Positions 24,655 to 45,244 of a DNA stretch of 64,000 bases are shown here, in pieces (within the stretch, counting starts at the first letter, position 1; the number at the start of each line of letters is the position of its first letter). The notes beneath the pieces are model-generated. The model did no database searches, was not told the origin of the DNA, and saw only the letters and a list, made by a program, of their open reading frames with translations. This DNA comes from Dictyostelium discoideum (taxonomy: Eukaryota), in assembly GCA_000004695.1 (NCBI GenBank), contig CM000151.3, forward strand, positions 3,744,001-3,808,000. Reading direction: 5' to 3'. Both the position numbers and the translations under genes were made by a program.

Positions 24655-24754
24655 NNNNNNNNNNNNNNNNNNNNNNNNNNNNNNNNNNNNNNNNNNNNNN
24701 NNNNNNNNNNNNNNNNNNNNNNNNNNNNNNNNNNNNNNNNNNNNNNNNNNNNNN
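24655..24754. other. assembly gap (100 N)
   Basis: Run of exactly 100 n characters. Confidence 1.
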
Positions 24755-25287
24755 AAAATTGGGGTGCACCAAAATTTACATCAGCAGAGAGATTTGAAGC
24801 ACAATTTAGTAAAATTAAAGACCTTTTGACAAACAATACAAACAACCAAGATCAACATAAATTTGAAAGAGTAAAAAAAATATTAATGGCAACATTTTTA
24901 GATAATTTTAACAATCTAAAAGAAAAAGATGATGACAATAATGATTTAATTTTAGGGCAAATAATTAAAAAAAATGAAAATATTTATTTAAAAAATAATA
25001 TTTTATCAGACATTAACTTGCATTACAAAAACATTGAAAATATTCAATTTCATAAATCAATTAAAAATTTAAAAGAAATATATAATGTTGGTGATGGAAT
25101 TGAAGTTGCCTCAGAAAATTCATTAACTGGACGATGGAGTGCAATAATTATTGCTATTTGTTTAATAGAATTAAAAAATAAAAAAAGTGCACATTCTATT
25201 TATATACAATACTTTGATAAAGATACAGGTGATCAAAATAATAAGTACCACTTTTTAAGAAAAAGCTTTTCAAGTATAACATATTAA
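24755..25287 (+). CDS. 3' fragment of an unknown ORF, truncated on its 5' side by the gap
   Basis: Reading frame is open from the first base after the N-run to the stop at 25285..25287 (..NWGAPKFTSAERFEAQFSKIKDLLTNNTNNQDQHKF...SITY*). There is no ATG at its start; track ORF 24826 begins at a TTG. It could be host-gene or repeat-element coding sequence. Confidence 0.3.
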
Positions 25288-25396
25288 ACACATTAATACC
25301 AATACAAATCGATTCGTCTAACTATCTTATAATTTATAAGTGCCATGACCAATTTTCAATAAGTAAAAAAAAAAAATGAAAAAAATTCGTTGAACT

Positions 25397-25600
25397 CACA
25401 GCGAAGAAAAAACCACCTTTAAATTCGCTTTAAATTAAATTTAAATTTGCTTTAAAGTCCTGAATTAAAGCAATTTTAAAGGTAATTTTAAAGGTAATTT
25501 TTAAGGTTACTTTAAAATTACCTTTAAAATTACCTTTAAAATTACCTTTTTAATCGCTTTAAAAGCGAGGTCCTGAGTTCGAAGCCGTTATTTAACGGAT
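25397..25600 (+). repeat. terminal-type repeat copy A
   Basis: See the composite element; starts at cacagcgaagaaaaaacc and contains (ttaaaggtaatt)n-like sub-repeats. Confidence 0.7.
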
Positions 25601-25640
25601 AAATTTTTTAAATTTTTTTTTTTAATTTTTCAAAAATTAC

Positions 25641-25713
25641 CAAAAGGGATTCGATCCCCCGACCCTCTATTAAAGGGTAGTCTCATCAACCATTACACCA
25701 TTTGATTGCTTTG
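25641..25713 (-). tRNA. tRNA-like degenerate sequence (possible tRNA pseudogene or element-associated tRNA remnant)
   Basis: Minus-strand sequence ..TGGTGTAATGGTTGATGAGACTACCCTTTAATAGAGGGTCGGGGGATCGAATCCCTTTTGG.. has a D-arm like tRNA-Gln/Glu genes (TGGTGTAATGGT), an anticodon-type hairpin (ACCCT-TTAATAG-AGGGT) and a T-arm-like GGGGGATCGAATCCC. The acceptor stem does not pair, so this is not a functional-looking tRNA. Confidence 0.25.
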
Positions 25714-25789
25714 ATGAAAAATTTAAAAATGATAGAATATTTTATCCCCATTTTTTTGTTCTAAAATTAGATCTTTTTTATTAAAAACC

Positions 25790-26131
25790 TTTAATTTATG
25801 TTTAAAGGAAATTTAAATTCACTTTAAATCTACTTTAAATCCTATTTAAAATTAATTTAAAATAAATTTTAAAGGTATTTTTAAATGTCTTAAAAATTAT
25901 CTTAAATTTACCTTAAAAATCACCTTTAAAATCACCTTTAAAATCACCTTTAAAATTGCTTAAAAATTTATTTTAAAGCAAATTTTAAAGGCATTTTTAA
26001 ATATCTTAAAAATTACCTTAAAAATTACCTTAAAAATGAATTTTTTAAACGCGGCTTTAAATTCAATTTAAATCCAATTTAAATCAACTTTTCTTTAAAT
26101 TTGCTTTAAAGGTGCATTTTTCTTTGCTGTG
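25790..26131 (-). repeat. terminal-type repeat copy B (inverted relative to A)
   Basis: 25790..25995 is the reverse complement of 27700..27920. 25995..26131 resembles the reverse complement of the start of A, ending ..tttgctttaaaggtgcatttttctttgctgtgc. Confidence 0.7.
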
Positions 26132-26259
26132 CTTATTTACATAACTTTTACATTTTTACGTAACTTTTTCTTTTTTTTTTTTCTTTTTTCCAATTTTCTT
26201 TTTTTTCGGTTGGAAATTATAGGATTTTAAAAAAAAATTAAAAAAATATTATAAAAAAA

Positions 26260-26549
26260 ATGACTCACAATAATTCTGCATCATTTGAAACACCAAATAG
26301 AAGTGGTAATTATGTAAATAGATCATCTTTAACTTCACCAACATCACCAATAACACCAATCACATCTCTTATTTTAAATCAAACTGATACCTCCATAGGT
26401 CCACAACGTACTGTTAGAAGACAACAAAGACCTCAAAGACCAAATGCAAGTCATCCACCAACAACAAATATTGTAGAAAAAATATTGGTGTATGAAACAT
26501 TGCACAGAAATTGTGTTTCTCAATACTATGCAACTGGTAAGGTAAGATA

Positions 26550-26594
<45 letters not shown>

Positions 26595-27233
26595 AAGAGA
26601 CTAATTAAATTAAATAAACAAAAATAATACATAAGATTTCCTCTCGTTTTATTAGGACCTGTATATTAAATGCTGGCGGTACAAATTCAAATGAAAATAA
26701 AGTTGTTCTATCCAAATTGGTTAAATGGGTCAACAATAAACGTGGTAACACACGTATTAAAGCCCTAAATACCCTTAGACTTTTAGTTAGAAATAAAGTA
26801 GAACAGTTCAGCGAGTTGCTCTCTCAGGTTCCACCATTAATGGAGTATGAATCGGTATGTAAAAAAAAAAAAAAAATAAAAAATAAAAAAAAAATAAAAA
26901 AAAAAAAAAAAAAAAAATAAATTATTAATAATTTGTTTTTTTAATTTTTTAATTATTATTTAGATAACTCCTTTTGATTTGGCCACTCTTATTATCGATA
27001 CAGTTACCTTAGAAGCTTTTGACTCCGATCCTTTTGTAAAGTTCTTAGTGTCTCAATGCTTTACAATTGAAGAAAAAGAATGGTACAGCGGTTCCAAACC
27101 TCTTATTTCTTTAATAGTTAAAGCATTGCGTGGTGTTTCTCAAAAGTTCATTGACTCTCCTGATGAACTTACTTACACTGAAAAGGTTGCTTTTGAATTC
27201 ACTTCAATACCTCTTTATGCTCCACTAAATTAA
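26260..27233 (+). pseudogene. host-like spliced ORF set inside the repeat island (3 exon-like segments; exon 1/2 phase mismatch)
   Basis: Segments 26260..26541 (MTHNNSASFETPNRSG...QYYATGK), 26656..26854 (..ILNAGGTNSNENKVVLSKLVKWVNNKRGNTRIKALNTLRLLVRNKVEQFSELLSQVPPLMEYES; donor GTATGT) and 26964..27233 (ITPFDLATLIIDTVTLEAFDSDPFVKFLVSQCF...LYAPLN*). Exons 2 and 3 join in phase. No donor at 26536/26541 gives the phase that exon 2 needs, so either exon 1 belongs elsewhere or the gene is disrupted. Confidence 0.3.
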
Positions 27234-27419
27234 ATCGTTTAAATAAAAAAAATTAATATGATTTCACATACTCAACTTTAATTTTTTCTTTTTTTTTTAA
27301 ATCTTTTTTTAATTTTTATTTTAAATTATTTTTTTTAATTTTTATTTTTAAAGTGATATTATTAATATATCTTATCAAGTTAACTTTATAATATAAATTT
27401 ATAAATGCACTTTTAAATT

Positions 27420-27700
27420 GAATTTTATAAATATAATTAATAAGAATACTTAATAAGTGTACTTACAAAGAGTACATTATAATTATAATTAGTAATTACG
27501 CTTAATAATTATACTTAATAAGTATATTTAATAAGTATACTTAATAAGTATACTTAATAAGTATATTTAATAAGTATACTTAATAAGTATACTTAATAAG
27601 TATATTTAATAAGTATACTTAATAAGTATACTTAATAAGTATATTTAATAAGTATACTTAATAAGTATACTTAATAAGTATATTTAATAAGTATACTTAA
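27420..27700. repeat. 13-bp satellite (taataagtatact / taataagtatatt), about 20 units with a 39-bp higher-order period
   Basis: Direct reading. Related palindromic variants tacttaataagtattacttattaagtatacttattaa occur at 28040..28082. Confidence 0.9.
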
Positions 27701-27925
27701 TAATATTTAAAAATGCCTTTAAAATTTGCTTTAAAATAAATTTTTAAGCAATTTTAAAGGTGATTTTAAAGGTGATTTTAAAGGTAATTTTTAAGGTAAT
27801 TTTTAAGATAATTTTTAAGATATTTAAAAATACCTTTAAAATTTATTTTAAATTAATTTTAAATAGGATTTAAAGTAGAATTAAAGTGAATTTAAAGTGA
27901 ATTTAAATTTCCTTTAAACATAAAT
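27700..27925 (+). repeat. terminal-type repeat copy B'
   Basis: Reverse complement of 25790..25995. Confidence 0.7.
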
Positions 27926-28149
27926 ATTATTTTTTTCGTTAAAAAAAAAAAATTCCAAAATTTTTTATTTTTTTTTGTGTTAAAAAAAAATTCCTAAATT
28001 TTTTTTTTTATTGTATTTTTTTTCATCACACCATTATAAATTCTATGTACTTAATAAGTATTACTTATTAAGTATACTTATTAATATATATTAAAAAGAG
28101 TACTTGGATTTAAAGGTGCTTTAAAGTGTTGATTTTCGCCGCTGTGTGG

Positions 28150-28960
28150 ATTGGTATCGACTCTACTGATTGTTTGGTCAATACTTCTTGGAATGTTCCC
28201 AGTACTTGAGGAAACATATGACGATGATGACGAGGAACTTGAGCTTGAATCATCGGATACCAAGTTGCTGATCTCCAGATTGGGAAGATCAGTATTATAG
28301 AAACCTTCTTCGAACTGGATGAGTTCATCTTCTCCAGTATAGAAGGCAAAAGAATGGGTGGTGGAAAGGCCAGACATTACTTATATTGACTCCAATCGAG
28401 GTGGAGTGCATTCATTCTGATTGTTGAGTAGTTGTTCGTTTGATGGTTGAGGTGAGATGCGAACAGATCCATCTGTATTTGACCGAATTGAAGTTGCCAG
28501 TTGTAACTCTTGATTACTCTGGTCGATGATATGTGATTCATCTCTGAAAGACGACTGAGGTGGTCGGCTTTTACATTATTCATAATATATATATATATGA
28601 TAATATAAATTAAATTTTTAAATCTTATTCATAATATATATATATATATATATGATAATATAAATTACCAGCCTTATTCTTAATCACAAGCTTGTGTTCG
28701 AGTTTACTTAAAAAATACTACAAATATGTATGTTGTAACTCTTCCACTAAAGAATCCAGCTCTCCACGGTATGCTTGCTGTAGTTCTGCCTCATGAGCCT
28801 GGAGACGTTCCTCAGGAGACAAGCTATGGCTGAACGAATTAGACAGAATAACACCACGAGGGATACCGTAGTGGGATAGGTTAGATGCCTTCATAACAAA
28901 CCAGAAGTTTAACAGCCAACTCACTACCATGTCATTGTTAGAGACTCAAAACTAAATTAA
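28150..28960 (-). pseudogene. decayed DIRS-like (tyrosine-recombinase retroelement) fragment: RNase H C-terminal motif plus recombinase N-terminal motif
   Basis: Minus-strand translation gives ..NNVKADHLSRLSEMNHISSTRVIKSYNWQLQFGQIQMDLFASHLNHQTNNYSTIRMNALHLDWSQYK*. NxxADxLSR is the conserved end of retroelement RNase H domains. DLFAS.LN.Q...Y........DW matches, from memory, the N-terminus of DIRS/Ngaro-type tyrosine recombinases (DLFASRLNxQLPxYxSWxPDPxAxxxDAFxxDW). The reading frame is broken by an AT-rich tandem duplication at 28585..28680 and by stops. GC is higher than in the surrounding DNA. Confidence 0.5.
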
Positions 28961-29288
28961 TTTAAAGTTAGTTTGAGCTCAACAACATAACAAATTCGCG
29001 CATCTCCATGTAAAAATATTTCATTTAATTTTTGTTTTTTATTTTTTATTTTTTCAGTCAAAAAATAAAATTAAAAAAATTAAATAAAATTAAAATTTAA
29101 AAAAATAATAAAAATTCTGATTTTCGGTTTAGTTAGATAACGCCCTTACATTCAATTATCTGTTTTATGTATGTTTACTTTTATGATGTTAGTCTTTCAC
29201 TCTTTCTATCCTTCATATGGAATGACATTAGATTAAAGATTGGACTAGTTCGGTTAAAGATTGAACAAATGTGACAATGGATTGAAGA

Positions 29289-30480
29289 TTAGTGTGAGAA
29301 ACTTTTACAGTCATCGTATCCAGACGCCTTGTGGTCAATACGACCATTCTTAACAACCAGACTGGTGATCTCATTAATCAGCGTTTTATCGTGAGTAACA
29401 CGACCAGCGCGTTTAGCCGCTTCAGGTAGGACTTCACCGTACAGTGTCAACGCGATTCGGCTGTAGTAACGAACCCAAACTTGTTACGCACGTCATCGTA
29501 GAAATAACTACCACGAGGACGCAGTGGATTGTTAACCATAGCAGCTGCATTTTTATCCACCTTCACCTCTTCAACAATCCAGTTAAAAATATGTTTGAAT
29601 GGATCAATACCTTGTAACGGCGAATTTAATCAGGTTAGTTTCATTACAACCCCCTGCATCTACTGTAACCATATCACGAATGTAAGTAAACACTAAACCA
29701 ATGGCATCTCTACCGATCGCTTCCGAGGGATCCATCCCTAGTAGAATGTGTGCCCCTTCGTTAATTTCTCATGTCGATCTTTTGGTATGTGTCAGCCGAT
29801 ACTGTAACCGTCTTTGGAACTCAGTCCACAGTGGGTCACGTTCATAGTCACGGATAATGTTGTTTAGCTCAGTTGACAGAGGTGAACGTAAAGAACCTGA
29901 TGTCCAGCGGTTAAAGAAGTCACGGTCTGCTTCTTTAATTTTAACACCGGAGTTCTGCAATGCGTCACGCAGCCATTCTTTATCCAAACCAAGCTGACGA
30001 TAACTCCACGTCCCGTTAATCATAATAAGCGCACCTTTCTTACCGATGAGTTTGATTAATACGGTACGTAGTTCTTCCTGGTTTCTCAGGTCTATGATGG
30101 TCTTTAACCCAAAGATAAGACGGCAGTAGATCGCGAATCTCTTTTAATCGGTCGAAGTTAGACCGTCAGTAGTGCGTCATCCTTCGTAATCAGGTTAATG
30201 CTGATGGTATCTGACGAACCAGACTTACCGGTCTGACGGGGATTAACATGTAGTCGATGTGGTTATAGAAGCTCCAGATCAAACTCAGGTTAGCACGGTT
30301 TGCTTTAAAAGGACGCGGCGTTGCACCCGCAGAGAATCTAACGACCTCACGATAGTAATACCATGGGTTGAATCGACATTCGATAGCGAATTAATTTCTT
30401 ATGACAGATCGGTGGCAAATGGATCCACTGACTTAATTCCTGTTGAAGGAGACTAAGCATGAATGTACAGTTCTCAACAC
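29289..30480 (-). pseudogene. T4-type phage terminase large subunit (TerL, gp17-like) gene, frameshifted and decayed
   Basis: Minus-strand frames, joined across at least four frame breaks, give a P-loop ..HVNPRQTGKSGSSDTISINLITKDD.., then FDRLKEIRDLLPSYLWVKDHHRPE, ..LIKLIGKKGALIMINGTWSYRQLG.., ..ILLGMDPSEAIGRDAIGLVFTYIRDMVTVDAGG.., ..GSYFYDDVRNKFGFV.. and the C-terminus ..VVKNGRIDHKASGYDDCKSFSH*. From memory these correspond to T4 gp17 blocks: Walker A [48 protein letters not shown], the nuclease motif ATLDCSEGRGQDYHALHI and EGYHDD. Similarity is from recall only. Confidence 0.55.
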
Positions 30481-30595
30481 CCATTTCTTTATAAAGATTT
30501 AGAAATTCAAGTTAATCAAATAATATTAATATTGTATTTGTATTCAAAGTGAAAAACTAAATTTTTCGAAAAACGAAAAACTTCGTAAAGTATCA

Positions 30596-30665
30596 AAATA
30601 CTTTACAAAAATTCAAAAAAAAATTCAAAAAAAAATTCAAAAAAAAATTCAAAAAAAAATTCAAA
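30596..30665. repeat. (aaattcaaaaaaaa)n 14-bp tandem repeat, 5 units
   Basis: Direct reading. Confidence 0.9.
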
Positions 30666-30689
30666 AAAAAAAAATTTAAAAAAATTTAT

Positions 30690-30903
30690 CCGTTAAATAA
30701 CGGCTTCGAACTCCGGACCTCGCTTTTAAAGGATTAAAAAGCTAATTTTTAAGGTAATTTTAAAGGTATTTTTTAAGGTGATTTTAAAGTAAACTTAAAA
30801 ATTACCTTTAAAATTACCTTAAAAATTGCTTTAATTCAGGACTTTAAATTCGCTTTAAATTAAATTTAAATTTGCTTTAAAGGAGGATTTTTCTTCGCTG
30901 TGG
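30690..30903 (-). repeat. terminal-type repeat copy A' (inverted copy of A)
   Basis: Starts ccgttaaataacggcttcgaactccggacctcgctt and ends ..tttgctttaaaggaggatttttcttcgctgtgg, the reverse complement of the start of A. Confidence 0.75.
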
Positions 30904-31900
30904 AATAAGCTGAGTTATTTCGAAAAAAGTTTATTTTTTTTTGACAAATTTTGCATGTTTTTTTTTTTTTTTTTTAATAAAACACATTATTTAAAACAAA
31001 AATTTTAAATAATATAAAACAATATTTGTTAAGACCTATCGTAGAATTAAATTTGGTTGTATTTATGGAGAAATAAAGAAAATATAAAAAAAAATGAACT
31101 TCGAAAAAAAAAAAAGGAACTTCAAAAAAAAAAAACTACATAAAATTTTTGTTTTAAATAATGGGGGACCTATCAGTGAATAATTGAATTAATTTTGAAA
31201 AAAAAAAGTTATTTTGAAAAAGATCGAGTTATCCCGGAAAAGATCAATCTTTTCGCGAAAAATTTTTCATTGGCCATATTATTTTTTTTTTTTTTAATTT
31301 TTTTCATTTATTCACAATTAAAATAAAAAATATAATAAATAAATAAATAAATAAAATAAATAGTATGATTGACAAAAAAAAATCAAAAATACCAGGGCTC
31401 AAATAAAGGATTTATTTTTTATATGTAGTTTTTTTTTTTTAAGTTCCTTTTTTTTTTCGAAATTCATTTTTTTTTATATTTTTTTTATTTCTCTATAAAT
31501 ACAACCAAATTTAATTCTACGACAGTCTTTACAAATATTGTTTTATATTATTTAAAATTTTTGTTTTAAATAATGTGTTTTATTAAAAAAAAAAAAAAAA
31601 AAAACATATGAAAAGTGAAAAATTTTTCAAAAAAAAATAAACTTTTTTCGAAATAACTCAATTTATTCCGGGATAACTCGATCTTTTTCAAAATAACTTT
31701 ATTTATTCAGAATTAATTCAATTATCCACTGATAGGTCCATTATTTAAAATTTTTGTTTTAAATAATGTGTTTTATTAAAAAAAAAAAAAAAAAAACATA
31801 TAAAATTTGAAAAAATTTCGAAAAAAAAAACTTTTTTTGAAATAAATGAATTTATTCTGAGATAACTCGATCTTTTTTAAAATATGCTGAGTTAATTATA
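30903..31900. repeat. nested inverted and direct repeats of a ~300-bp AT-rich module (non-coding)
   Basis: The module gagttat(t/c)tcgaaaaaagtttatttttt..aataaaacacattatttaaaacaaaaattttaaataatataaaacaatatttgt.agac..tcgtagaattaaatttggttgtatttatggagaaataa occurs at 30903..31080 (forward), 31440..31640 (reverse) and 31740..31880 (partial). Segments 31140..31330 and 31620..31740 form a further inverted pair. Confidence 0.7.
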
Positions 31901-31979
31901 ACAGAAATTTTTACTTTATTTTTTATTTTTTATTTTTTATTTTATTGACTAAATTATTTTTAAAAAAACAATTACAGAT

Positions 31980-33072
<1,093 letters not shown>

Positions 33073-33876: not shown

Positions 33877-35287
33877 TTAATATTTGTAATCTTTTACATA
33901 TAATGATTCAGATGCTGAACCAGTTGATTCCTCACCAGTGTATTTACCGAGTTGAGCAAGAGAGTTACACTTGGCACGATGTAAATAAACTTTACGAGCA
34001 GCTTCAACGTTGGCAGATTCACCTTTCCAAGTGGAGATGACAGAGGCCTGTAAGGCACGACCGTATGAGAAAGAGAGAGCCCATGGACGATTTGGTAAGA
34101 CATTCATAGCGTTTAAGTTTGCAGTGGCTTCAATTTCAGTTTGACCACCAGATAAGAAAACAACACCAGTAAGAGCTGGTGGAACAGTACGTTGAAGGGT
34201 ACGGACGGTGAATTTACCAATTTGTTCAGAGGTGGCTTTGATTGGACAGTCGGTACCATTGACGACCATATTTGGTTTTAATAAGGCACCTTCTAATAAG
34301 ATATGATGGTCATTGAGTGCTTTGAAAACTGCAGCTAAAACTTTTTCAGTGACTTCAGCAGATTGCTCGACAGTGTGATTACCATCCATTAAGATTTCTG
34401 GTTCGACGATTGGGACCAAACCATTCTCTTGACAAATTGCAGCATAACGAGCTAATGTGTGTGCATTTTCAGTGATTGATAATTGGGATGGACAATTCTT
34501 GGCAAGATCAATCTTTAAGACTGCTCTCCATTTTGCGAAACGTGCACCTGCTTCATAGTATTTCTTACAACGCTCTGCAAGACCATCTAAACCTTGGGTT
34601 GAGGTTTCACCATCGGTACCTGGAATTGGTACAACACCCTTATCAACTTTAATACCAATGTGAATCTTTTGTTCTCTTAAAACATCTGTGAATAATCTAC
34701 CATCTGCCATCTTTTGGTAAAGAGTTTCTTCATATAAAATAATACCACCAATAAATTCGTTAACACCATTACCAGTACCAATTAAAAGTTCTCTGTAGGC
34801 TCTTCTGTTCTCTTCATTGTTTTCTAAATTAATCTTTTTGAAACGAGCTCCAATTGTATTGGTTGATTCATCTGCTGCTAAAATACCTTTACCTGGTGCT
34901 ACAATTGCTTTCTGTTTTTAAAATAAAATAAATAAAAAAATAAAAAAATAAAATTTTAAAAATTAATAAAAATAATAAGAATAATAAGAATAATAAATTA
35001 ATAAATAAAATTTATTAATAATTAATAAAAGAATGAATAAATAGATAAAAAAAGGAATAAAAGAAAAAAAAAAAAAAAAAAAAAACTCCGAAAAATTGTC
35101 GGACAATTGTCGGACAATCTTTCACATAGGAGATAATATTTTTTTTTTTTTTTTCCAATCTTTTTTGATTTAAAAAAAAAATAAAAAAATAAAAAGAATA
35201 AAAAAAAAAAATAATAATCAAAAATTTAAATAGTTGATTAAAACTTACAGCAGTTGCAATTAATTCATCAGCAAATTTAGAATTCAT
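33877..35287 (-). CDS. fba: fructose-bisphosphate aldolase, class I, 2 exons
   Basis: Exon 1 35249..35287 ([13 protein letters not shown]; donor GTAAGT) and exon 2 33877..34911 (acceptor AAAACAG). The product reads [43 protein letters not shown]...IVEPEIL...LLKPNMV...[14 protein letters not shown]...*, the hallmark class I aldolase blocks. The 337-bp intron contains the junk ORF 35015..35368. Confidence 0.9.
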
Positions 35288-37188
35288 TTTAAAAAAAAAA
35301 GTATATAGTATAATGGTGTGCAATATAAAATATTGAAGAATGAAAAAAAAAAAAAAAAAAAAAAACAAAAAAAAAAATAAAAATTTTGAAGATAAAAAAA
35401 AAAATTAAAAAAAAAAAAAAAAAAATTAAAAATTAAAATTTTAAAAAATAAAAATTATAAAAATAAAAAAAAAATAAAAAATAATCCCCATCCTGTTTGT
35501 ATTCTCGGGTAGATATATAGGGTAATACTTTTTTTTTTTTTTTATCAACCCCTAATAAAGAATTGAAATTTCAAAAATATCACAAAGAAATTTAATTTTT
35601 TTTTACTTTTTAAATATCTTTTTTTGTGATTTACAACTTTTTTTTTTTTTAATTTTTTTTAAATTAAATTATTTTCTTTTTTTTTGATCATTCTTTATTA
35701 TTATTATTTTTATTTTTTTTTAAAAAATTATTTTACCTTCTTAATTTTATATATTTTATTATTTATTTTTCCTTTATAATTTCTTTATTTTTATGGTTAT
35801 TATTAAAAATTAAATAATAAAAAAAAAAAAAAAATATAAAAAATCTGGAAGTGGCGAAATGAATTTTCATTTTATTTTCCCTTTCACCAGTAAAAAGTTA
35901 TTGATTGAAAAAAAAAAAAAAAAAAAAAAATTATATTAATTTTAACACAAAGCCTATTCTTTAATTTCTTGTTTATTTATTTTTGGTATCAATTTTTTTT
36001 AAAGTTTTATTTTTATTTTTGATTTTATTTTTATTTTTTCTTAATTTTTTTGTTTGTTAAATAAAGGCACACATTCTTAAAATTTTAAGAAAATGACTTC
36101 AAAAATAGATGATATAGATATCGATAATGGAGAAGAGATTTTGAAGACCAAGATAGTGATGATGATGCATCTAAATCCAAATAAGATTCAAATAGAAAAC
36201 GAAAGGTTTCAACACCAGCCCTAAAATCAATACCAAAATTACCATTATTCAACAACCTAAAAATGATACAAACATCATAGAAAAGGATATTTTTTTTTTT
36301 TTATATGATAAATTCAAAATAGTATTTATTTTATTTGATTTCAATCTACAAATAAACAGATCCGACTGATTTTGATTTATCTTTTGGATGAAAAATTTTG
36401 AATTGTTTCATAAATGTTTTGTGATGCATTTCAATTGCCAATTTATTTGATCTAAATTGATGTCACAGTTAGTTTCATACTACAACCTTAGTTTCTTTGT
36501 ATTGTTTCGAACGGGTGTTTTTAAAAACACCATTTGGTTTCATCTTTATTTTCTATTCTAACAAATGGATCTACACTATTATCAAATGAACTATCTGTAA
36601 TTTCACCAGTAATAAAAAAAAAAAAATTAACAATATTATCAGAAGATGATGATTTTTTTCCTAATGTTTCATTTTTGCCACCCAAGTTACCTTTTTTTTT
36701 TTTTAAAAATAATATAAAATATATTAATATCCATCATTAAAATCCATTTATTTTATTTTATTTTTTTTTATTTTTACCTTGTTTAGTTTGTTCATTTATT
36801 ATATCGTTCATTAAAGGCTTTCTTTTTTTTTTTTCTTATTTATAAAATTTCTTTTGAAATTTCAATTTTTTACTTTACTCCAAAGCTTTTTAATTTTTTT
36901 TTTTTTCAAATAATTTCGATCAACACAAAAATCAGATATTTTTTTAATTTAAAAAAATGAAAAGTTTAAGAGTTTCGGGAGTCTGGAAGGTAAGAAAATA
37001 AAAAAAAAATAAACAACATCGAATTTGGAAAAATAAAAAAAAAAATAAATAAATAAATAAAATTAAGATAATTAATTTTTTTTTTTTTTTTTTTTGTTTA
37101 TTTTTTTTTTCTTCTCCTTTTGTGTTTCTTAATTGTATTCAATGATAAATACAATTTTTTGTATATTATTGAGTGTTGGATCTTTTTA

Positions 37189-37236
<48 letters not shown>

Positions 37237-37237
37237 C

Positions 37238-38033
37238 TTAAACGTGTAAGTGCAAATGTTCAAAATCATTGTAAGTGTCAGTTTCTTTATTATCATCTAT
37301 ACTTTCATTGATATCAATGTGTCTTGAGGAAGAGTCATTTGATGAAGGTGCTTGATCAATAGCATTTGAATCGTCTTTGATACAGATTACATTACACTTT
37401 GCATGTTCAAGGATGTAACGAGAAGTTGAGCCAATGAATATCCTTTTGATTGGTCCAATTCCTCTTCTTCCAACTACTAGATAGTGAATATCTTTTTCAA
37501 CTGCTGCTTTAATTACAGCTTCTCCAACATGATTTCCATGGCCTAACAATGCTTTAACATTTTGAACACCTAAATTTTTACATAAATTAGCTCTGTTTAT
37601 TAAAATTGATTTGTGTTTTCTCTCAATTGCTTTCAATGTTTCTTTAAAATATATATTAATGTAAATATTAATATTTAATTTTTTTTTTTTGTTTTTTTTT
37701 TTTTTTTTTTTATTTTATTTTATTTTATTTTATTTTATTTTATTTTATTTTATTTTATTTTATTTTATTTTATTTTATTTTATTTTATTTTATATATATT
37801 AATTAATTTATTAATTTATTTTATTTTATTTATTTATTTATTTATTTTTTAAAAAAAGACATACCTGAAACAACAACCGCAGAAATTGCGGACGATGGGA
37901 ATGTAATTGGATCCTCTGCTACAGAAATTAGGTATAACAAATCCTTATCTTTTTGAAATACATGATTAATAATTTCTTTGATTGAATGTTCAGTATTACT
38001 TCCTTCATCCACTGCTATCATATAATTTACCAT
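37238..38033 (-). CDS. universal stress protein (UspA-family) domain protein, 2 exons
   Basis: Exon 1 37865..38033 (MVNYMIAVDEGSNTEHSIKEIINHVF...AVVVS; donor GTATGT, phase 1) and exon 2 37238..37640. Contains the USP ATP-binding signature VVGRRGIGPIKRIFIGSTSRYILEHAKCNVICIKD. The intron carries an (ATTTT)n tract at 37700..37795. Confidence 0.8.
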
Positions 38034-38355
38034 TTTTTTTTTTTTTAATTAATTTTTGGATAAAAAAAAAAATTTTATTGGTATTATTTTTTTTTTTTTT
38101 TTTTTTAATTGAAATTACAACAAAAAATAATAAAATTAAATTTTTTTAATTATTTTTTTTTATTATTTTTTTTATTTTTTTTATTTTTTTTTTTTATTAT
38201 TGATTTTGTATGAAAAAATAAAATGGTAAATTATATTATTTTAATTTTTAGAAGATGAAATACAAAATTTTATTATTTTTTTAATACAATTTTGTATTTC
38301 ATCTTCTAAATATTAAAATAATACAATAAAAAAATTTATATAAATATAACCAATC

Positions 38356-38394
<39 letters not shown>

Positions 38395-38579
38395 CCAACG
38401 AACGTTCGTTTTTGTTTTTTTTTTTTATTATTTTTTTTTAATATTTTTTTATTTTTTTTTTTATTTTTTTTTTTTTAAATTGGTTCAATTAAAAAGTTTG
38501 CTAGTCAAACGATTTAGGCAAATAGTGTAATATTACGAAAATAAAACAAATAAATAACAAATATTTAAATAAAAAAATC

Positions 38580-38702
38580 ATGATTTCAAAGATTTTTTCA
38601 AAACAATCAATATTTGCAATATTTGTTATATGTTTGTTTATATTCATTTTAAATAATAATATTATTGACACAAAACTAAAAGAAAAACATATTAAAGAAC
38701 AA

Positions 38703-38791
<89 letters not shown>

Positions 38792-41402
38792 TAATAATAA
38801 AAAATCAAACGTAAAGAAAAATTCATATAATAGTTTTAGAAATATTAATTTTTTAAATGAAGAATTTCCTCAGCTCTACACATATAATCCTGAAGAGCAG
38901 AATATAGAAACATACCACTACTACGAGGAAGAGGAAGAAGAAGAAGTAGAAGTAGAAGTAGAAGAGGGAGAAGAAGAAGAAGATAATTATCAAGATAAAA
39001 ATAAATTAAAGATATTTAACAATGAGATTAAAGAGGAATGGTCAAAATTACCAAGTGATATAATGGATAAAAAGAGGATTTGTATAGTTACAACTGAAAT
39101 AGAGGGACCAGTTTTGGGAGGTGGTATTGGAACGGCATATACAGCATTATCACAAAAATTGAATGAGGATGGACATCAAATTACAATTGTTTTAGTGAAT
39201 AAAGTGAAGAGATTAACAATGGAGCATTGGATAGAACTTTACGGACGACAAGGTATAGAGTTGGTGATTTTAGATTTCTTTCTATTGGATCCTCTATCGG
39301 TTGGATCAAAGGTTGCAATGGAAAATCAGAATAAATTGAACCCAAATGAAACTGATAATCTCATTGGAATGATAGGTTGTACTGGACCATGCATTAGATC
39401 CTATCGTACTTATCTTTGGTTATCAAGACACGAGAATCAATTTGATTTCATACATTTTCATGACAATGGTGGTATGGCCTATTTCTCAACTCTATCACAA
39501 CGTCAAGGTTTACACTTTCAAGAGGTAAACATTGTCATTGGTGGTCATGGTCCACATCTTTGGGAAAGAATCGCAAATTCTGCCAATCTAGATGATGGTA
39601 AACATTTCGAAGTAGATTATTTAGAAAGAAAATCGGTTCAATTCTCAAATTATCTTATATCACCAAGTAATTATATGTTAAATTGGATGACTTATAATCG
39701 TTGGGAAATTCCAAAGAATTCTTTTGTTCATCAAAATTTATTACCTGGTAAAAATCAACAATCCTTATCACCAATGTTATTAAATGATTTTTTATTTAAA
39801 CAACAACAACAACAACAACAAGATATTAATGCTGATCAGCAAGATGATGACAATGATAATGGTTTAGAATTACATGATTTTAATGAAATATTATTTTTTG
39901 GTAGATTAGAGTCAAGAAAAGGTTTAGATATATTTTTAAAAGCTTTAGAATCATTATCACAACAAATAAAGAGTTATTCAATGAAAATTACATTCCTTGG
40001 ATCAAATACGAAATTAATGGAATTCAATGTAATGGCTGATTTATATATTGATTCAGTTTGTAGACGATTGGATATTTATTGTCAAATTTTAGTTGGAAAA
40101 TCTCATACTGAAGCAATTCAATATTTAACTACCAATAAACATGATAAATTGGTTGTGGTCGCTTCACCCATTGATAATTCTCCAAATACCGTATTGGAAT
40201 GTTTAACTCATCGTTTATCTTTAATTGCAACCAATGTTGGTGGTATACCTGAACTCATTCATCCAAATGATAGAAAGAGGGTTTTATTCGATCCAAAACC
40301 AAAATCATTGATCAAATTAATTAAAACTTTAAAAGAAACTGGTATCTCTGCTGCTAGATTTTCAACTGATGAATGGACTCGTCAAATGATTTGGAGTAAT
40401 TGGCATTCTATTGCACAATTGGATTCTTCAATAACAAATAGAAATAGAAAATTAAATAGTGTTAGATTAGATAATATCAAAAAGAAATTATTAACTATAG
40501 TTTTAATATATGATAGAAGTAATTTAGAAACTTTATTAAAAAATATAAACTCTATTTCATCTCAACCATCACCATACTTTAATTATAATATTTTAATAGC
40601 AAAATCTTCAAAGATTCCTGGTGGTTCAACTGATAAAATCTCTCCAAAACTTTCAAAACTTTTAAAATCTTTAAATATTTTTTATCTTGTAACTGAAATT
40701 AATGATAGTTTATTACAACCATTTCAACCATGGAACTCAAAAGAAATATTAGAACATTCAACAGGTGATAATATCCTCTTTTTAGATCCTTTAGATTATC
40801 TCTCTTCAAATGCTTTATATCTATTAGGAAGAGTTGATCAATTTACAAATGCTCAAATTATCACTGGTTCAGTTTTATTCAGTGGAAATAATTCAATTAT
40901 AATTGATAAAGTTTTTGATCAAATTAATAAAAATATTGGAACTACTACTACCACTACTACCACCACCACCACCACTACAACCACCACTACAACTTCTTCA
41001 ACTACATCTTCTTCTTTAGATCATTCACCAGATACAAGTATAACTTCAATTTATATGGGATGTACTGGTATGCCTGGTATAATGTATAATTGTTATGGTA
41101 GTAGTAATTTATTAATAAGTAGAGTAGCTTTACAAGAATTAAGTAATCAATATCCTGTACTCAAGAAAAACAATAGCGCTGATAATGATCATTTTGATCA
41201 TTTAGATTTCAATAGCGATATTGAAAATAGTGGTACTTGGGACTTTTATGCTCATGCAACAAGTAATGGTTATTCTTTACAAACTATACCAAAGGTTTTA
41301 TTTATCTCTGATAGATTAGAATATGAACCTCAAATTACCTATAGTCAAGAAACTAGAGTTTTAAAAAATTTTGATAGTAAATATTATAATATTTTTATTT
41401 AA
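38580..41402 (+). CDS. large membrane-anchored glycosyltransferase (GT4-like domain); may continue into the downstream sulfotransferase exon (see 41502..42646)
   Basis: 940-aa ORF with an N-terminal hydrophobic anchor (IFAIFVICLFIFIL) and an acidic low-complexity tract. GT4-type core: ICIVTTEIEGPVLGGGIGTAYTALSQKL..ITIVLVN ... ILFFGRLESRKGLDIFLKALESL ... NSPNTVLECLTHRLSLIATNVGGIPELI. The C-terminal half has a poly-T linker and a further domain. A GTAAAT donor sits 25 nt before the stop codon. Confidence 0.8.
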
Positions 41403-41409
41403 TTTTATT

Positions 41410-41457
<48 letters not shown>

Positions 41458-41501
41458 AATTAATTTTTAATTTTTTTTTTTTTTTATTATCCAAAAAATA
41501 G

Positions 41502-42646
41502 ATATTCTACCACCAACATTTGAATTATCATCATTAGCGACAAGACATTTTTTAACAACAAAGAAGTTATATTTAAATGAGATTATTAATGTAAATACAA
41601 AATCAAAAGAATGCGAAAGATTATTAAATAGTGGTAACATCAATAATATTAATAGTAATAATAATAATAATAATAATAACCAAGAGTTAATTAAAATATC
41701 AAATGATAATTTTAATGAAAATGGTGAAGAGAATCATATGGAAAGTAGAAATCATATTAAAATGTTATTTGTTAGAGGTCATGAAAAGAGTGGAACAAGT
41801 TGGTTAAAAAAAGTTATTGATTTACATCCAAGAATTTTCATGGCAAAACAAGAGTTTCATTTCTCTATTATGGAGGAAGGTTTAGATAAATTTACATCGA
41901 AACCATGGGCAGCTGCACAAGAACCATATAAATCTTATAGTAGAAAATGGTATAGATCATTTGTTAGAAATATTTTATTATCAGGTGTATCACCATCATT
42001 GGCTCCATTAATTAATTGGATCGGTGAGAAAACTCCATCACCATTGGCACCAATTATCTCTGGTTCAAGATATATTCTAATCATTAGAGATGGTCGTGAT
42101 GTGGTTATAAGTTTATTTTGGCATTATGTAAGATTAGGTGGTTTTGAAAATTGGTGTGGTCCAAATCAACATCATTTAGTCAATCCAGATTATGTCAAAG
42201 AGTATCGTGCTGATAATGGTACAAAAGATTACTTCTCAATTTATCCAGAAAGATTATTGGAAAAAGAAATTTGCTTTAGAAAAATCGCTTCTGGTTGGGC
42301 AAAACGTGTTAGAGAGGATCAATCTGTCATTGATGCATTACAATCGAATCCAGTTGCTTCGGTTTTCTCTTTACGTTATGAAGAATTACATAGAAATCCT
42401 GAAGAAAATAGAAAAGCTCTTTACCAATTTTTAGATTTAGATTATAATGAAGCTGAACCATTATCTGTTGAAGATAAAACTATACCCGGTGGTTTCGATG
42501 AAAAATCTGATAAAAATAAATTCTTTAGAAAAGGTGAAATTGGTGATTGGAAAAATTATTTCACTGATAATAATAAACGTTGGTTTAAAGAAGAAACTGG
42601 TAGTTTATTAGTTGATTTAGGTTATGAATTAAATAATGATTGGTAA
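41502..42646 (+). CDS. sulfotransferase-domain protein segment; no ATG of its own for about 80 codons, likely 3' exon of the glycosyltransferase gene
   Basis: The frame is open from 41471. The first ATG is at 41738, but upstream in-frame sequence is clearly coding (ILPPTFELSSLATRHFLTTKKLYLNEII...). It carries the PAPS-binding motifs: 5'-PSB HEKSGTSWL and 3'-PB YILIIRDGRDVVISLFWH. A TAG acceptor lies at 41499..41501. Dictyostelium Kil1 is a comparable Golgi sulfotransferase, but identity is not claimed. Confidence 0.7.
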
Positions 42647-42696
42647 TAAATAAAATAATAAACTATATTTAATAATATTTATTTATTTGTTTTTTT

Positions 42697-42727
<31 letters not shown>

Positions 42728-42785
42728 CATAATATTTAATAATAATTTATTTTATTTTATTTATTTTTTTTGATTTAAAATTGAT

Positions 42786-44150: not shown

Positions 44151-44354
44151 TTTTTTTTTTTATTTGGATATTAAAAAAAATAAAAAAAAATTAAAAAAAA
44201 ATTAAAAAACAATTTAACCACAATTCGTTCGATTTTTTTTTTTTTTTTTTTTTTAATTTTGTTTTTATTTTTTGGTTTTTTTTTTCTTTCTCGCATTAAT
44301 AAAAAATATATTAATATATAAAAAAAATAATAAATTAAAAAAAAATATAAATAA

Positions 44355-45149: not shown

Positions 45150-45212
45150 TTTACTATATGGAAATATATTTTAATTATAATTTTTTAAAAGGTAATTGAA
45201 ATTTTTTTTTTT

Positions 45213-45244
<32 letters not shown>

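What the first reader, a model, noticed from the sequence alone, without database searches (positions are those of the whole stretch)
29289..30480. Decayed T4-type phage terminase large-subunit gene inside a Dictyostelium-style repeat island
Minus-strand frames carry, in the correct N-to-C order, a terminase P-loop (..NPRQTGKSGSS..) and FDRLKEIRDLLPSYL, which from memory matches T4 gp17 [15 protein letters not shown]. They also carry an LIMINGTW block (gp17 IIITTTPNG region) and the TerL nuclease motifs GMDPSEAIGRDAIGLVF and ..GYDDC-stop (gp17 ..GYHDD..). Colinearity is kept only by hopping frames at least four times, and there is an in-frame stop just before the P-loop, so this is a pseudogene and not an intact phage gene. 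GC is about 40-45%, against under 25% for neighbouring DNA. The segment is enclosed by AT-rich inverted repeats of host type (A/A'). A caudovirus packaging ATPase embedded in an amoeba nuclear locus is not expected. It is either an ancient horizontal acquisition carried by a transposon-like element, or a chimeric assembly with bacterial-prey phage DNA (Klebsiella T4-like phages have similar GC).
Basis: partly seen in the sequence, partly recalled or inferred. Interest (0 to 1): 0.85.

Follow-up and report, generated by a model that had tools for sequence, protein, structure and literature searches.

The report
Dead jumbo-phage terminase gene in Dictyostelium

Summary
Window 28688-30511 (minus strand) is a decayed copy of a phage terminase large subunit (TerL) gene, covering aa 26-669 of a 706-aa protein. 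It is not T4-type. Its relatives are jumbo phages: 74% nucleotide identity to Erwinia phage pEa_SNUABM_54 and 78% to two metagenomic jumbo-phage contigs. T4 gp17 is only a remote homologue.

The window is D. discoideum AX4 chromosome 2. Contamination or a chimeric assembly is excluded by these findings:
- An independent assembly reproduces 10 kb around the relic at 99.8% identity.
- A variant allele from another sequencing run has the same host junction and most of the same lesions, but keeps sequence that AX4 has deleted.
- A 374-bp host mobile element with a 5-bp target-site duplication sits inside the relic.
- Substitutions show relaxed constraint and AT bias.

The relic lacks Walker B, has about 9 deletions and a roughly 30-bp micro-inversion, and changes frame at least 7 times. 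It was not found at the syntenic site in seven related assemblies. It is currently annotated as hypothetical gene DDB_G0274377.

Best reading: a dead-on-arrival horizontal transfer from phage-infected prey into a transposon-rich patch, recent on the scale of the D. discoideum species complex. Interest is moderate.

The parts
28688..30511 (-). Whole TerL relic. It corresponds to aa 26-669 of a 706-aa jumbo-phage terminase large subunit: about 1445 bp of phage-derived DNA plus a 374-bp host insertion.
   Evidence: blastn against phages; tblastn with pEa_SNUABM_54 TerL; four-way nucleotide alignment.
30434..30511 (-). TerL aa 26-51 (frame -1), directly abutting AT-rich host DNA at 30512.
   Evidence: The same junction is present in the variant allele L036.
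30232..30402 (-). TerL aa 65-121 (frame -2). It is preceded by a 1-bp and a 7-bp deletion.
30188..30247 (-). Walker A P-loop segment PRQTGKSGSSDTISIN (frame -1). It is followed by a 36-bp deletion between two ACCTGAT direct repeats. That deletion is AX4-specific: L036 keeps 24 of the 36 bp.
30096..30165 (-). RSNFDRLKEIRDLLPSYLWVKD (frame -2). It ends at a 331-bp deletion that removes aa ~186-289, including Walker B (HIDE, D224/E225).
   Evidence: invariant columns of the family alignment.
29619..30104 (-). TerL aa 288-450 (frame -3), including LIMINGTW and the nuclease motif GMDPSEAIGRDAIGLVF. It has an internal 2-bp deletion, a 1-bp deletion and a stop. A 104-bp deletion follows at 29620; it is AX4-specific, because L036 keeps 99 bp.
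29310..29629 (-). TerL aa 482-588 (frames -1 then -3, with a 1-bp AX4-specific deletion at ~29449). It ends in ..HKASGYDD.
28936..29309 (.). 374-bp AT-rich host mobile element inserted into the relic. Its termini are TGTAA../..TAACA (the TGTNR pattern). It is flanked by a 5-bp target-site duplication: GTCAT on the + strand at 28931-28935 and 29310-29314, which reads ATGAC in the gene sense.
   Evidence: The empty site is seen in all three phage genes. Sequence. A second copy lies in another assembly (L039 18346-18757). A 5-bp TSD and TGTNR termini are typical of Tdd-4/5 elements and Gypsy-type LTRs (PMC2836005).
28688..28939 (-). TerL aa 586-669 (frame -1): MVVSWLLNFWFVMK...SKLEHKL.
   Evidence: 62% aa identity, E=3e-26.
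28708..28740 (+). Micro-inversion of about 30 bp inside the relic. LKNTTNMYVVT is read on the opposite strand and matches phage aa 653-663.
   Evidence: tblastn + strand hit; 30/33 nt identical to the phage genes in inverted orientation.
28584..28687 (.). AT-rich filler between the relic and the DIRS-like fragment. It contains a 50-nt direct duplication.
   Evidence: the repeat finder family D14; sequence.
28110..28583 (-). 3' end of a DIRS-type retroelement pol (end of RNase H plus the Dam-like methyltransferase domain). It is a single frame with one stop. The annotated gene DDB_G0274763 is an alternative-frame ORF lying over it.
   Evidence: Translation; weak Pfam Dam hit; Dictyostelium relatives carrying PF00589/PF05869; exact look-up.
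30655..30902 (-). Half A of host repeat X (86% identical to 25397-25630). It carries the terminal inverted repeat CACAGCGAAGAAAAA..
27703..27949 (-). Half B of host repeat X (93% identical to 25774-26004). Between the two halves, the central 143 bp of an intact X is replaced by the 2705 bp that hold the relic.
25397..26131 (+). Intact reference copy of host repeat X (735 bp, ~34-bp TIRs).
   Evidence: Further copies are in L006.

Best explanation
This is a non-functional relic of a horizontally acquired phage gene.

Shown:
- About 1.9 kb from the interior of the TerL gene of a jumbo phage is fixed in D. discoideum chromosome 2. The closest cultured relative infects Erwinia.
- It lies about 3.4 kb downstream of the aldolase gene fbaA, inside a copy of a TIR-bearing host repeat and next to a DIRS-type retroelement fragment.
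- It lacks the start codon, the stop codon and Walker B, so it cannot encode a terminase.
- It has since decayed as neutral DNA through microhomology-flanked and other deletions, frameshifts, a micro-inversion, AT-biased substitutions, and insertion of a 374-bp integrase-type host element.
- Part of this decay is still segregating between strains.

Inferred:
- The route was phagotrophy. A bacterium infected by a jumbo phage was eaten, fragmented phage DNA escaped digestion and reached the nucleus, and it was joined into a break in transposon-rich DNA by end joining.
- The fragment was dead on arrival and persists only by drift.
- The gene models DDB_G0274377 and ACTFIT_003308 are prediction artefacts built on its surviving ORFs.
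For: Homology:
- blastn gives 76% identity over 85% of the query (E=9e-92) to Erwinia phage pEa_SNUABM_54.
- tblastn covers aa 26-669.
- That phage protein matches PHROG phrog_2, terminase large subunit, at E=3e-43.
- The best of 5.8 billion proteins are 706-aa proteins from jumbo-phage contigs, at 72% identity.

Host identity:
- The neighbouring ORF is exactly DDB_G0274763 of AX4, on an 8,484,197-bp contig.
- The relic's own ORFs make up DDB_G0274377.

Genuine chromosomal residence:
- Independent assembly GCA_054883475.1 matches window 34935-24755 at 99.82%.
- Logan contigs from SRR17156088/89 are identical to the window.
- Contig L036 (SRR26869267) has the same host/TerL junction and the same 331-bp and small lesions. 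It still holds 24 of 36 bp, 99 of 104 bp and 1 bp that AX4 lacks, and differs at about 8 SNPs.
- A host element with a 5-bp TSD interrupts the relic.

Neutral decay:
- Window-specific substitutions fall 29/22/41 on codon positions 1/2/3, against 23/12/82 in the two closest phages (p=2e-4).
- GC-to-AT changes outnumber AT-to-GC changes 52 to 22, against 47 to 49 in those phages (p=0.007).
- GC is 44.1% in the relic against 47-49% in the same columns of the phage genes.

Only a gene fragment is present:
- The genes flanking TerL in the phages have no match anywhere in the window.

Recent origin:
- There is no TerL within 10 kb downstream of fbaA in seven other assemblies of the D. discoideum complex, D. 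citrinum and D. firmibasis.
Against: - The route of entry (prey, phagosome escape, end joining) is inferred, not observed.
- The true donor phage is unsampled. The best match is only 78% at the nucleotide level, so donor host and date are uncertain.
- Absence in the other assemblies was tested only within 10 kb of fbaA, in a region that is rearranged between lineages. Loss or relocation cannot be excluded.
- I could not test transcription or small-RNA production, so a non-coding role is not excluded.
- The organism and strain behind SRR26869267 are unknown to me.
Confidence: 0.9

Rival explanations
1. Contamination or chimeric assembly: phage DNA from the food bacterium was mis-joined to amoeba DNA in the AX4 reference.
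For: GC of 42-47% inside a 22% GC genome. The closest relatives infect Enterobacterales, the usual laboratory and natural prey. An assembly gap lies 4 kb away at 24655-24754.
Against: An independent assembly has the same 10 kb at 99.8% identity. Three further read sets assemble the same junctions. One of them is a distinct allele with shared and private lesions. A host element with a TSD lies inside the relic. Nine deletions, an inversion and AT-biased drift are not what contaminating phage DNA looks like. No sampled phage is closer than 78%.
Confidence: 0.01
2. Domesticated gene: the surviving ORFs (DDB_G0274377, 124 aa; ACTFIT_003308, 191 aa) encode a functional amoeba protein, or the locus yields a functional RNA.
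For: Two annotation pipelines call genes here. The longest ORFs keep 80-90% aa identity to phage TerL segments.
Against: The two gene models disagree in their exon structure. Walker B and about 110 aa of the ATPase are deleted, and the P-loop and nuclease motifs lie in different frames. Strains differ by 1-, 24- and 99-bp indels inside the models. Substitutions show relaxed constraint. No relic was found at the syntenic site in close relatives. The high residual identity is explained by the young age of the relic.
Confidence: 0.03
3. Capture by a mobile element: the TerL piece was picked up by, or is cargo of, a host transposable element. One route is template switching of a DIRS-type reverse transcriptase onto phage RNA. 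Another is capture between the TIRs of repeat X. Either way, it would have reached this locus by transposition.
For: TerL and the DIRS-like pol 3' fragment are colinear on the same strand, 104 bp apart. Both lie between the two halves of a TIR-bearing repeat, in place of its central 143 bp. The 374-bp element and a DIRS-like pol fragment starting at nearly the same position are also adjacent in another genome.
Against: Only one locus carrying TerL sequence was found among the Dictyostelium proteins in the database. The outer end of half B of X is not recognisable, so no complete mobile unit and no TSD for the composite can be defined. The junction between TerL and the DIRS-like fragment is AT-rich filler, not a clean switch point. 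Phage RNA inside an amoeba nucleus or cytoplasm is an extra assumption.
Confidence: 0.07
4. Endogenous element of a eukaryotic virus that uses an HK97-type terminase (herpes-like or mirusvirus-like), rather than a bacteriophage.
For: Such viruses encode TerL-fold ATPases and do integrate in protist genomes (context only: 10.1101/2024.01.18.576163, listed).
Against: The relic is 74-78% identical at the nucleotide level to cultured and metagenomic jumbo phages. The divergence is concentrated at third codon positions, which is the signature of a recently shared functional phage gene. No other viral genes are present in the window.
Confidence: 0.01

Closest known systems
TerL of Erwinia phage pEa_SNUABM_54 (QXO10957.1, annotated 'hypothetical protein') and its metagenomic relatives (P0001-P0004; JGI 3300031414, Logan ERR11525714)
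   Same: Colinear over aa 26-669. Nucleotide identity is 74-78% and aa identity about 72%. The P-loop QTGKSGSS, the nuclease motifs GMDxSEAxGRDAIG and GxDD, and the C-terminal helix are shared.
   Different: The amoeba copy lacks both ends, Walker B and two further blocks. It carries frameshifts, stops, an inversion and a host insertion, and it is flanked by amoeba DNA. None of the sampled phages is the donor.
T4 gp17 (PDB 3CPE, 3EZK) and RB49 gp17 nuclease domain (3C6A)
   Same: Same superfamily: ASCE ATPase plus an RNase H-like nuclease. The family profile aligns to gp17 residues ~392-504, the nuclease core, at E=1e-8 to 4.5e-7.
   Different: There is no pairwise sequence hit and no Pfam Terminase_6N/6C hit in any of 35 family members.
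Bacteria-to-Dictyostelium horizontal gene transfers, such as the TIR-domain genes tirB/C/D (PMC13142454), and the candidate transfers listed with the 2005 genome paper (from my own knowledge)
   Same: Prokaryote-world DNA fixed in the nuclear genome of a bacterivorous amoeba.
   Different: Those are intact, expressed, domesticated genes of bacterial origin. This is a phage structural-machinery gene fragment with no sign of function, that is, the raw unselected product of transfer.
Non-functional nuclear insertions of foreign DNA in eukaryotes: endogenous viral elements, organelle-derived inserts, and Wolbachia-to-insect fragments (from my own knowledge)
   Same: Fragmentary, rearranged, neutrally decaying, sitting in repeat-rich DNA, and polymorphic between lineages.
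   Different: The donor is a lytic bacteriophage that never replicates in the recipient cell, so no infection or endosymbiosis brings the DNA into the cell. Ingestion is the likely route.
Solo LTRs of Skipper/DGLT-A and non-autonomous Tdd-4/5 (Ginger2) elements of D. discoideum
   Same: The 374-bp insert has TGTNR termini and a 5-bp TSD. Its size is near the 390-bp Skipper-1 LTR (PMC5006619). It is repeated in another genome.
   Different: I had no reference sequence for these families, so the assignment to a family is untested.

Membership tests
Phage terminase large subunit (TerL) superfamily | Significant sequence homology to proteins established as TerL | tested here: met
   The relic aligns to pEa_SNUABM_54 gp131 at E=3e-96. 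That protein hits PHROG phrog_2 'terminase large subunit' at E=3e-43. The family profile hits T4 and RB49 gp17 structures at E=1e-8 to 4.5e-7. The relic's own 333-aa C-terminal conceptual translation hits no Pfam or PHROG model directly.
Phage terminase large subunit (TerL) superfamily | Walker A P-loop (GKS/T) | tested here: met
   PRQTGKSGSS at 30188-30247. G124, K125 and S126 are invariant in the 35-member alignment.
Phage terminase large subunit (TerL) superfamily | Walker B and catalytic carboxylate (hhhhDE) | tested here: not met
   HIDE (D224/E225, invariant) lies inside the 331-bp deletion. The deletion is shared by both known alleles.
Phage terminase large subunit (TerL) superfamily | RNase H-like nuclease acidic residues | tested here: met
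   GMDPSE (D413 equivalent) and GYDD (D587/D588 equivalents) are retained, but in different reading frames.
Phage terminase large subunit (TerL) superfamily | Intact open reading frame, i.e. a functional member | tested here: not met
   At least 7 frame changes, in-frame stops, nine deletions totalling 487 bp, a 374-bp insertion, an inversion, and no start or stop codon of the original gene. It is a relic of a member, not a working member.
T4-type terminase (gp17; Pfam Terminase_6N/Terminase_6C) | Match to the T4-type Pfam models, or direct similarity to gp17 | tested here: not met
   No Pfam family at E<=1 in any of 35 clade members. phmmer of the phage protein against all PDB chains gives nothing at E<=1. 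Only the profile-level match to the nuclease core is found.
pEa_SNUABM_54-like jumbo-phage TerL clade | Nucleotide-level similarity and colinearity with clade members from genomes or contigs of 100-270 kb | tested here: met
   74-78% nucleotide identity over 1396 aligned columns. Relatives sit on a 272,635-bp phage genome and on contigs of 97-268 kb. Weaker DNA hits are to other jumbo phages: Noxifer, PCH45, Asesino, PhiEaH1 and KpLz-2_45.
Horizontally acquired foreign-DNA relic fixed in a eukaryotic chromosome | Physical continuity with host DNA, confirmed independently | tested here: met
   Independent assembly at 99.82% over 10.2 kb. Three Logan contigs span the junctions.
Horizontally acquired foreign-DNA relic fixed in a eukaryotic chromosome | Evolution inside the host: host-type mutation bias, host element insertions, allelic variation | tested here: met
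   AT-biased and position-independent substitutions. A TSD-flanked host element lies inside it. Two alleles differ by 3 indels and about 8 SNPs.
Horizontally acquired foreign-DNA relic fixed in a eukaryotic chromosome | Patchy phylogenetic distribution: absent from relatives | tested here: inconclusive
   No TerL within 10 kb downstream of fbaA in 7 assemblies, and no TerL-derived gene models from them in the protein database. Whole genomes could not be searched, and the region is rearranged between lineages.
Integrase-type host element (solo LTR or Tdd-like MITE) for the 374-bp insert | TG..CA / TGTNR termini, 5-bp TSD, more than one copy | tested here: met
   Termini TGTAA.. and ..TAACA, and TSD ATGAC, judged against the empty site in three phage genes. 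A second copy is at L039 18346-18757. The criteria come from PMC2836005. The family name (Skipper, DGLT-A or Tdd) was not tested.
DIRS-type tyrosine-recombinase retroelement (neighbouring fragment 28110-28583) | RNase H end followed by a Dam-like methyltransferase domain; relatives carrying a tyrosine recombinase | tested here: met
   Pfam Dam PF05869 at E=9e-5, below the gathering score. Dictyostelium relatives at 65-92% identity include proteins with PF00589 and PF05869. Only a 3' fragment is present.

The most novel reading that the evidence does not exclude
The relic did not arrive as naked DNA. Instead it was captured by host mobile-element machinery, by one of two routes. In the first, a DIRS-type reverse transcriptase switched template from its own RNA onto a phage TerL transcript released from digested prey, giving a colinear TerL-to-pol-3'-end chimera. 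In the second, the piece was trapped between the TIRs of repeat X. Either would be the first case of a eukaryotic transposable element acquiring bacteriophage sequence, and would imply that such elements can shuttle prey-derived genes.
Probability: 0.06. Interest if true: 0.75.

Novelty: new member of a known kind. Interest (0 to 1): 0.48.

Why it matters
Functional bacteria-to-amoeba gene transfers are known. The unselected raw material, foreign DNA that integrates and simply rots, is rarely documented, because it is usually discarded as contamination.

Here is a verified case in the reference genome of a model phagotroph. The donor is a lytic jumbo phage that cannot infect the amoeba, so ingestion is the likely route. 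This is direct support for the 'you are what you eat' transfer ratchet.

The relic is young and polymorphic, with deletions still segregating. It can therefore serve three purposes:
- to measure deletion and AT-mutation bias on neutral GC-rich DNA in D. discoideum;
- as a strain marker;
- as a template for genome-wide searches that estimate the rate of foreign DNA influx.

Practically, two reference gene models should be re-annotated as artefacts laid over relics: DDB_G0274377 (TerL-derived) and DDB_G0274763 (alternative frame over a DIRS fragment).

Tried and rejected
- E. coli genomes: no match to 28700-30520.
- Pfam and PHROG scans of the relic's conceptual translation: no direct hit. Family identity had to come through the phage homologue.
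- phmmer of the phage TerL against PDB: nothing. Only the profile worked.
- tRNA search with ARAGORN on the window and on L006, and an Rfam scan of 24755-32500: no tRNA. The only hits were weak hairpin matches to MITE-derived miRNA models. My idea that repeat X contains a tRNA gene was therefore dropped, although a B-box-like motif is present.
- tblastx of 21 kb of phage DNA around TerL against the window: only TerL matches, so no larger phage segment is present.
- Literature searches for Dictyostelium plus terminase, and for the gene and run accessions: nothing relevant.
- Exact-pattern scan of metagenome contigs for the 331-bp-deletion junction: no hit.
It was reached instead through its cluster members.
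- I first took the 28082-28583 ORFs for a Ty3-type RNase H/integrase fragment. I revised this to DIRS-type after the Dam hit and the relatives found.
- I considered whether the 374-bp AT-rich block is a spliceosomal intron (GT...AG can be found). I rejected this because of the 5-bp duplication, the TGTNR termini and the second genomic copy.
- I considered that L039 might hold an orthologous 'empty site'. It does not: the region is rearranged there.
Full report
**1. The observation.**

The window is very AT-rich (22.5% GC). A block at about 29185-30515 reaches 42-47% GC.

blastn against 50,697 phage records gives one strong hit, Erwinia phage pEa_SNUABM_54 (272.6 kb): 76% identity over 85% of the query, E=9e-92. 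There are also short hits to annotated 'terminase large subunit' genes of other jumbo phages: Noxifer, KpLz-2_45, PhiEaH1, PCH45 and Asesino. A wider query showed that the homology continues to 28688.

tblastn with the 706-aa phage protein maps aa 26-669 onto window 30511 down to 28688, using frames -1,-2,-1,-2,-3,-1,-3,-1.

**2. What the gene was.**

- The phage protein is labelled hypothetical in GenBank, but it matches PHROG phrog_2 (terminase large subunit) at E=3e-43.
- Among 5.8 billion proteins, the nearest are four 706-aa proteins at 64-72% identity to the (decayed) query. They come from metagenomic contigs of up to 268 kb. Everything else is at 43% or below. IMG/VR gives the same picture.
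- No Pfam terminase model matches any of 35 clade members.
- The protein alone hits nothing in the PDB.
- A profile of the clade reaches T4 gp17 (3EZK, 3CPE) and RB49 gp17 (3C6A) at E=1e-8 to 4.5e-7, but only over the nuclease core.

So this is a TerL of a jumbo-phage clade and only a remote cousin of T4 gp17. 'T4-type' is not supported.

**3. Anatomy of the relic (four-way nucleotide alignment).**

Relative to the phage genes, the AX4 sequence differs as follows:
- Deletions of 1, 7, 4, 36, 331, 2, 1, 104 and 1 bp. The 36-bp deletion lies between two ACCTGAT direct repeats.
- One 1-bp insertion.
- A 374-bp AT-rich insertion (28936-29309), lying exactly between ..GYDD and MVVSWLL.. . It is flanked by a duplicated ATGAC and has TGTAA../..TAACA termini.
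- A micro-inversion of about 30 bp. LKNTTNMYVVT is read on the + strand at 28708-28740, and 30/33 nt match the phages in inverted orientation.

The 331-bp deletion removes about 110 aa, including the invariant Walker B residues D224/E225. Both ends of the gene are missing. The genes that flank TerL in the phages have no counterpart anywhere in the window. Of the 1932 bp expected for aa 26-669, 1445 bp remain.

**4. Where it is.**

- The ORF at 28084-28377 (-) is exactly XP_643870.1, DDB_G0274763 of D. discoideum AX4, on an 8,484,197-bp contig, which is chromosome 2.
- The relic's ORFs are annotated as DDB_G0274377 (124 aa, 'hypothetical protein') in AX4 and as ACTFIT_003308 (191 aa) in a newer assembly. 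The two models use different exons.
- The class I aldolase gene fbaA lies about 3.4 kb away, at 33877-35287.

**5. Is it really in the chromosome?**

- An independent D. discoideum assembly (GCA_054883475.1, a 4.9-Mb contig) matches window 34935-24755 at 99.82%, with 1 mismatch and 4 gaps in 10.2 kb. It covers the relic and both junctions, and it continues through the 100-N gap of AX4.
- Logan assemblies of SRR17156088 and SRR17156089 give contigs identical to 30574-29389 and 30206-29300.
- A contig from SRR26869267 (L036) is a different allele. It has the same AT-rich host flank joined to TerL at 30512/30511. It also has the same 1-, 7-, 4-, 331-, 2- and 1-bp deletions, the same 1-bp insertion, and the same start of the 374-bp insert.
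- However, L036 retains 24 of the 36 bp, 99 of the 104 bp and the single C that AX4 lacks, and it differs at about 8 SNPs. Of the five differences that the phage outgroups polarise clearly, four are G/C-to-A/T.
- Shared lesions plus private lesions mean vertical inheritance and continuing decay inside amoebae. Contamination or chimerism cannot produce this pattern.

**6. Molecular-evolution signature.**

- Over 1396 aligned columns, the relic is 78% identical to the two closest phage genes and 74% to pEa_SNUABM_54.
- Differences are concentrated at third codon positions (0.42-0.45, against 0.09-0.21 at positions 1 and 2). Most of the divergence therefore accumulated while the gene was a working phage gene. 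The donor is simply unsampled.
- Changes unique to the amoeba copy are spread 29/22/41 over codon positions, against 23/12/82 for the two phages (Fisher p=2e-4).
- They run GC-to-AT 52 times and AT-to-GC 22 times, against 47 to 49 in the phages (p=0.007).
- GC is 44.1% in the relic, against 47-49% in the same columns of the phage genes.
- A crude partition gives about 64 neutral substitutions, or about 4.6% per site, since loss of constraint. This is a rough figure.

**7. The 374-bp insert is a host mobile element.**

- The empty site is visible in all three phage genes.
- TGTNR termini and a 5-bp TSD are the signature of integrase-type elements. In D. discoideum, Tdd-4 and Tdd-5 make 5-bp TSDs, and Gypsy-type LTRs share the TGTNR ends (PMC2836005).
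- The Skipper-1 LTR is 390 bp, and ten solo LTRs are known (PMC5006619).
- A second copy, with the same 3' terminus, exists in another assembly (L039 18346-18757). There it abuts another DIRS-like pol fragment and has no TSD.
- I could not name the family.

**8. The surroundings.**

- Directly 3' of the relic lie 104 bp of AT-rich filler with a 50-nt duplication.
- Next comes the 3' end of a DIRS-type pol (28583 down to 28110). It is one frame with a single stop and has the motifs ADHLSR, DLFAS and IFPIWRSATWYP. There is a weak Pfam Dam hit. Dictyostelium relatives include proteins with tyrosine-recombinase and Dam domains.
- DDB_G0274763 is an ORF in another frame laid over this fragment.
- The whole 2705-bp block (27950-30654) sits between the two halves of a host repeat, X. 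The intact 735-bp copy of X, with TIRs CACAGCRAAGAAAAA.., is at 25397-26131. The block replaces the central 143 bp of X.
- More X copies fill the AX4 gap in the newer assembly.
It does not show that the composite is mobile, because only one TerL-bearing locus is represented among Dictyostelium proteins.

**9. Distribution.**

Through the aldolase cluster, I fetched 21-kb syntenic loci from seven assemblies:
- D. discoideum ACTFIW and ACTFIR;
- two D. cf. discoideum assemblies;
- two D. citrinum assemblies;
- D. firmibasis.

Synteny with AX4 holds from 45.3 kb to about 32.4 kb in the two D. discoideum strains. None of the seven has any TerL similarity within 10 kb downstream of fbaA, by blastn or tblastn.

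Third-position divergence of fbaA exon 2 from AX4:

| Assembly | Divergence |
|---|---|
| D. discoideum ACTFIR / ACTFIW | 2.9-3.2% |
| D. cf. discoideum | 5.2% |
| D. citrinum | 12.5-14.5% |
| D. firmibasis | 18.3% |

Together with the neutral divergence of about 4.6%, this suggests that the insertion occurred within the D. discoideum complex. The region is rearranged in those genomes and I could not search them whole, so loss or relocation is not excluded.

**10. Mechanism.**

Shown:
- An internal fragment of a jumbo-phage TerL gene is fixed in amoeba chromosomal DNA.
- It is non-functional.
- It is decaying neutrally, with AT bias and a predominance of deletions, and it is polymorphic.

Inferred:
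- It entered through phagotrophy of a phage-infected enterobacterium.
- It was joined into a break in transposon-rich DNA by end joining.
- It was dead on arrival.
- Some of the rearrangements, namely the inversion and the large deletions shared by both alleles, may date from the integration event itself. Others (36 bp, 104 bp, 1 bp) demonstrably came later.

A more exotic possibility is capture by a DIRS-type reverse transcriptase or by repeat X. It is compatible with the colinear arrangement but has no positive support.

**11. Novelty and verdict.**

I found no paper linking Dictyostelium with a terminase or naming these gene models. Bacteria-to-Dictyostelium transfers of functional genes are established, for example the TIR genes (PMC13142454). 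A verified, dated, polymorphic phage-derived pseudogene appears to be a new example of a known kind of event.

It is a useful curiosity and an annotation correction, not a new biological system. I give 0.48.

Noticed in passing
window 28084-28377 (-): The annotated gene DDB_G0274763 (98 aa, with a serine run) is an alternative-frame ORF lying over a DIRS-type pol 3' relic. The true frame (28583 down to 28110) has a single stop. The gene model is probably spurious. In the newer assembly it is even spliced to a piece of the TerL relic (KAM9945056.1).
   Followed up: yes
window 25397-26131; also L006 10533-12855: A 735-bp MITE-like host repeat ('X'). It has ~34-bp terminal inverted repeats (CACAGCRAAGAAAAA..CACCTTTAAAG), ~12-bp periodic TTTAAAGGTNATT units, and internal hairpins that weakly hit MITE-derived miRNA models. 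It also has a B-box-like GAGTTCGAAGCC motif, but ARAGORN and Rfam detect no tRNA. Several copies fill the AX4 assembly gap in a newer assembly.
   Followed up: partly
window 24655-24754: A 100-N assembly gap in AX4. Assembly GCA_054883475.1 runs through it and shows inverted copies of repeat X there.
   Followed up: partly
window 27307-27735: A long array with 13-bp periodicity that is also a near-perfect palindrome (arms up to 182 nt, 72-88% complementary), immediately beside half B of repeat X.
   Followed up: no
window 30902-31145 and 31419-31669; 30958-31013 and 31740-31795: Another inverted-repeat element just outside the X half, with arms 90% and 100% complementary. It is conserved at the syntenic position in the ACTFIW and ACTFIR assemblies.
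   Followed up: partly
L039 16583-17596 (-): In D. discoideum ACTFIW, the region corresponding to the AX4 relic neighbourhood instead holds a 338-aa ORF that looks like a PIF/Harbinger-type DDE transposase fragment, plus GC-rich low-complexity repeats. The locus is a lineage-specific transposon landing pad.
   Followed up: no
L039-L045 compared with window 35300-45300: Gene order upstream of fbaA differs between two groups. D. discoideum has Usp/FNIP, a glycosyltransferase/sulfotransferase and PheRS. D. cf. discoideum, D. citrinum and D. firmibasis have RNase H2-Ydr279, a WD40 protein and FNIP. So fbaA sits at a synteny breakpoint. Assemblies labelled D. discoideum (ACTFIW, ACTFIR) are 7-12% divergent from AX4 in this region, which is a lot for one species.
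   Followed up: partly
window 32387-32716: A long AAT/ATT-type trinucleotide run giving poly-N, poly-V and poly-L ORFs on different frames and strands. This is typical Dictyostelium simple-sequence coding repeat.
   Followed up: no
window 33877-34911 and 35249-35287 (-): The class I fructose-bisphosphate aldolase gene fbaA (357 aa) has a 337-bp AT-rich intron after codon 13. At about 40% GC, it is the only other GC-rich block near the relic, and it is a normal host gene. A 57-bp DNA match to a cyanophage aldolase gene reflects conservation, not transfer.
   Followed up: yes
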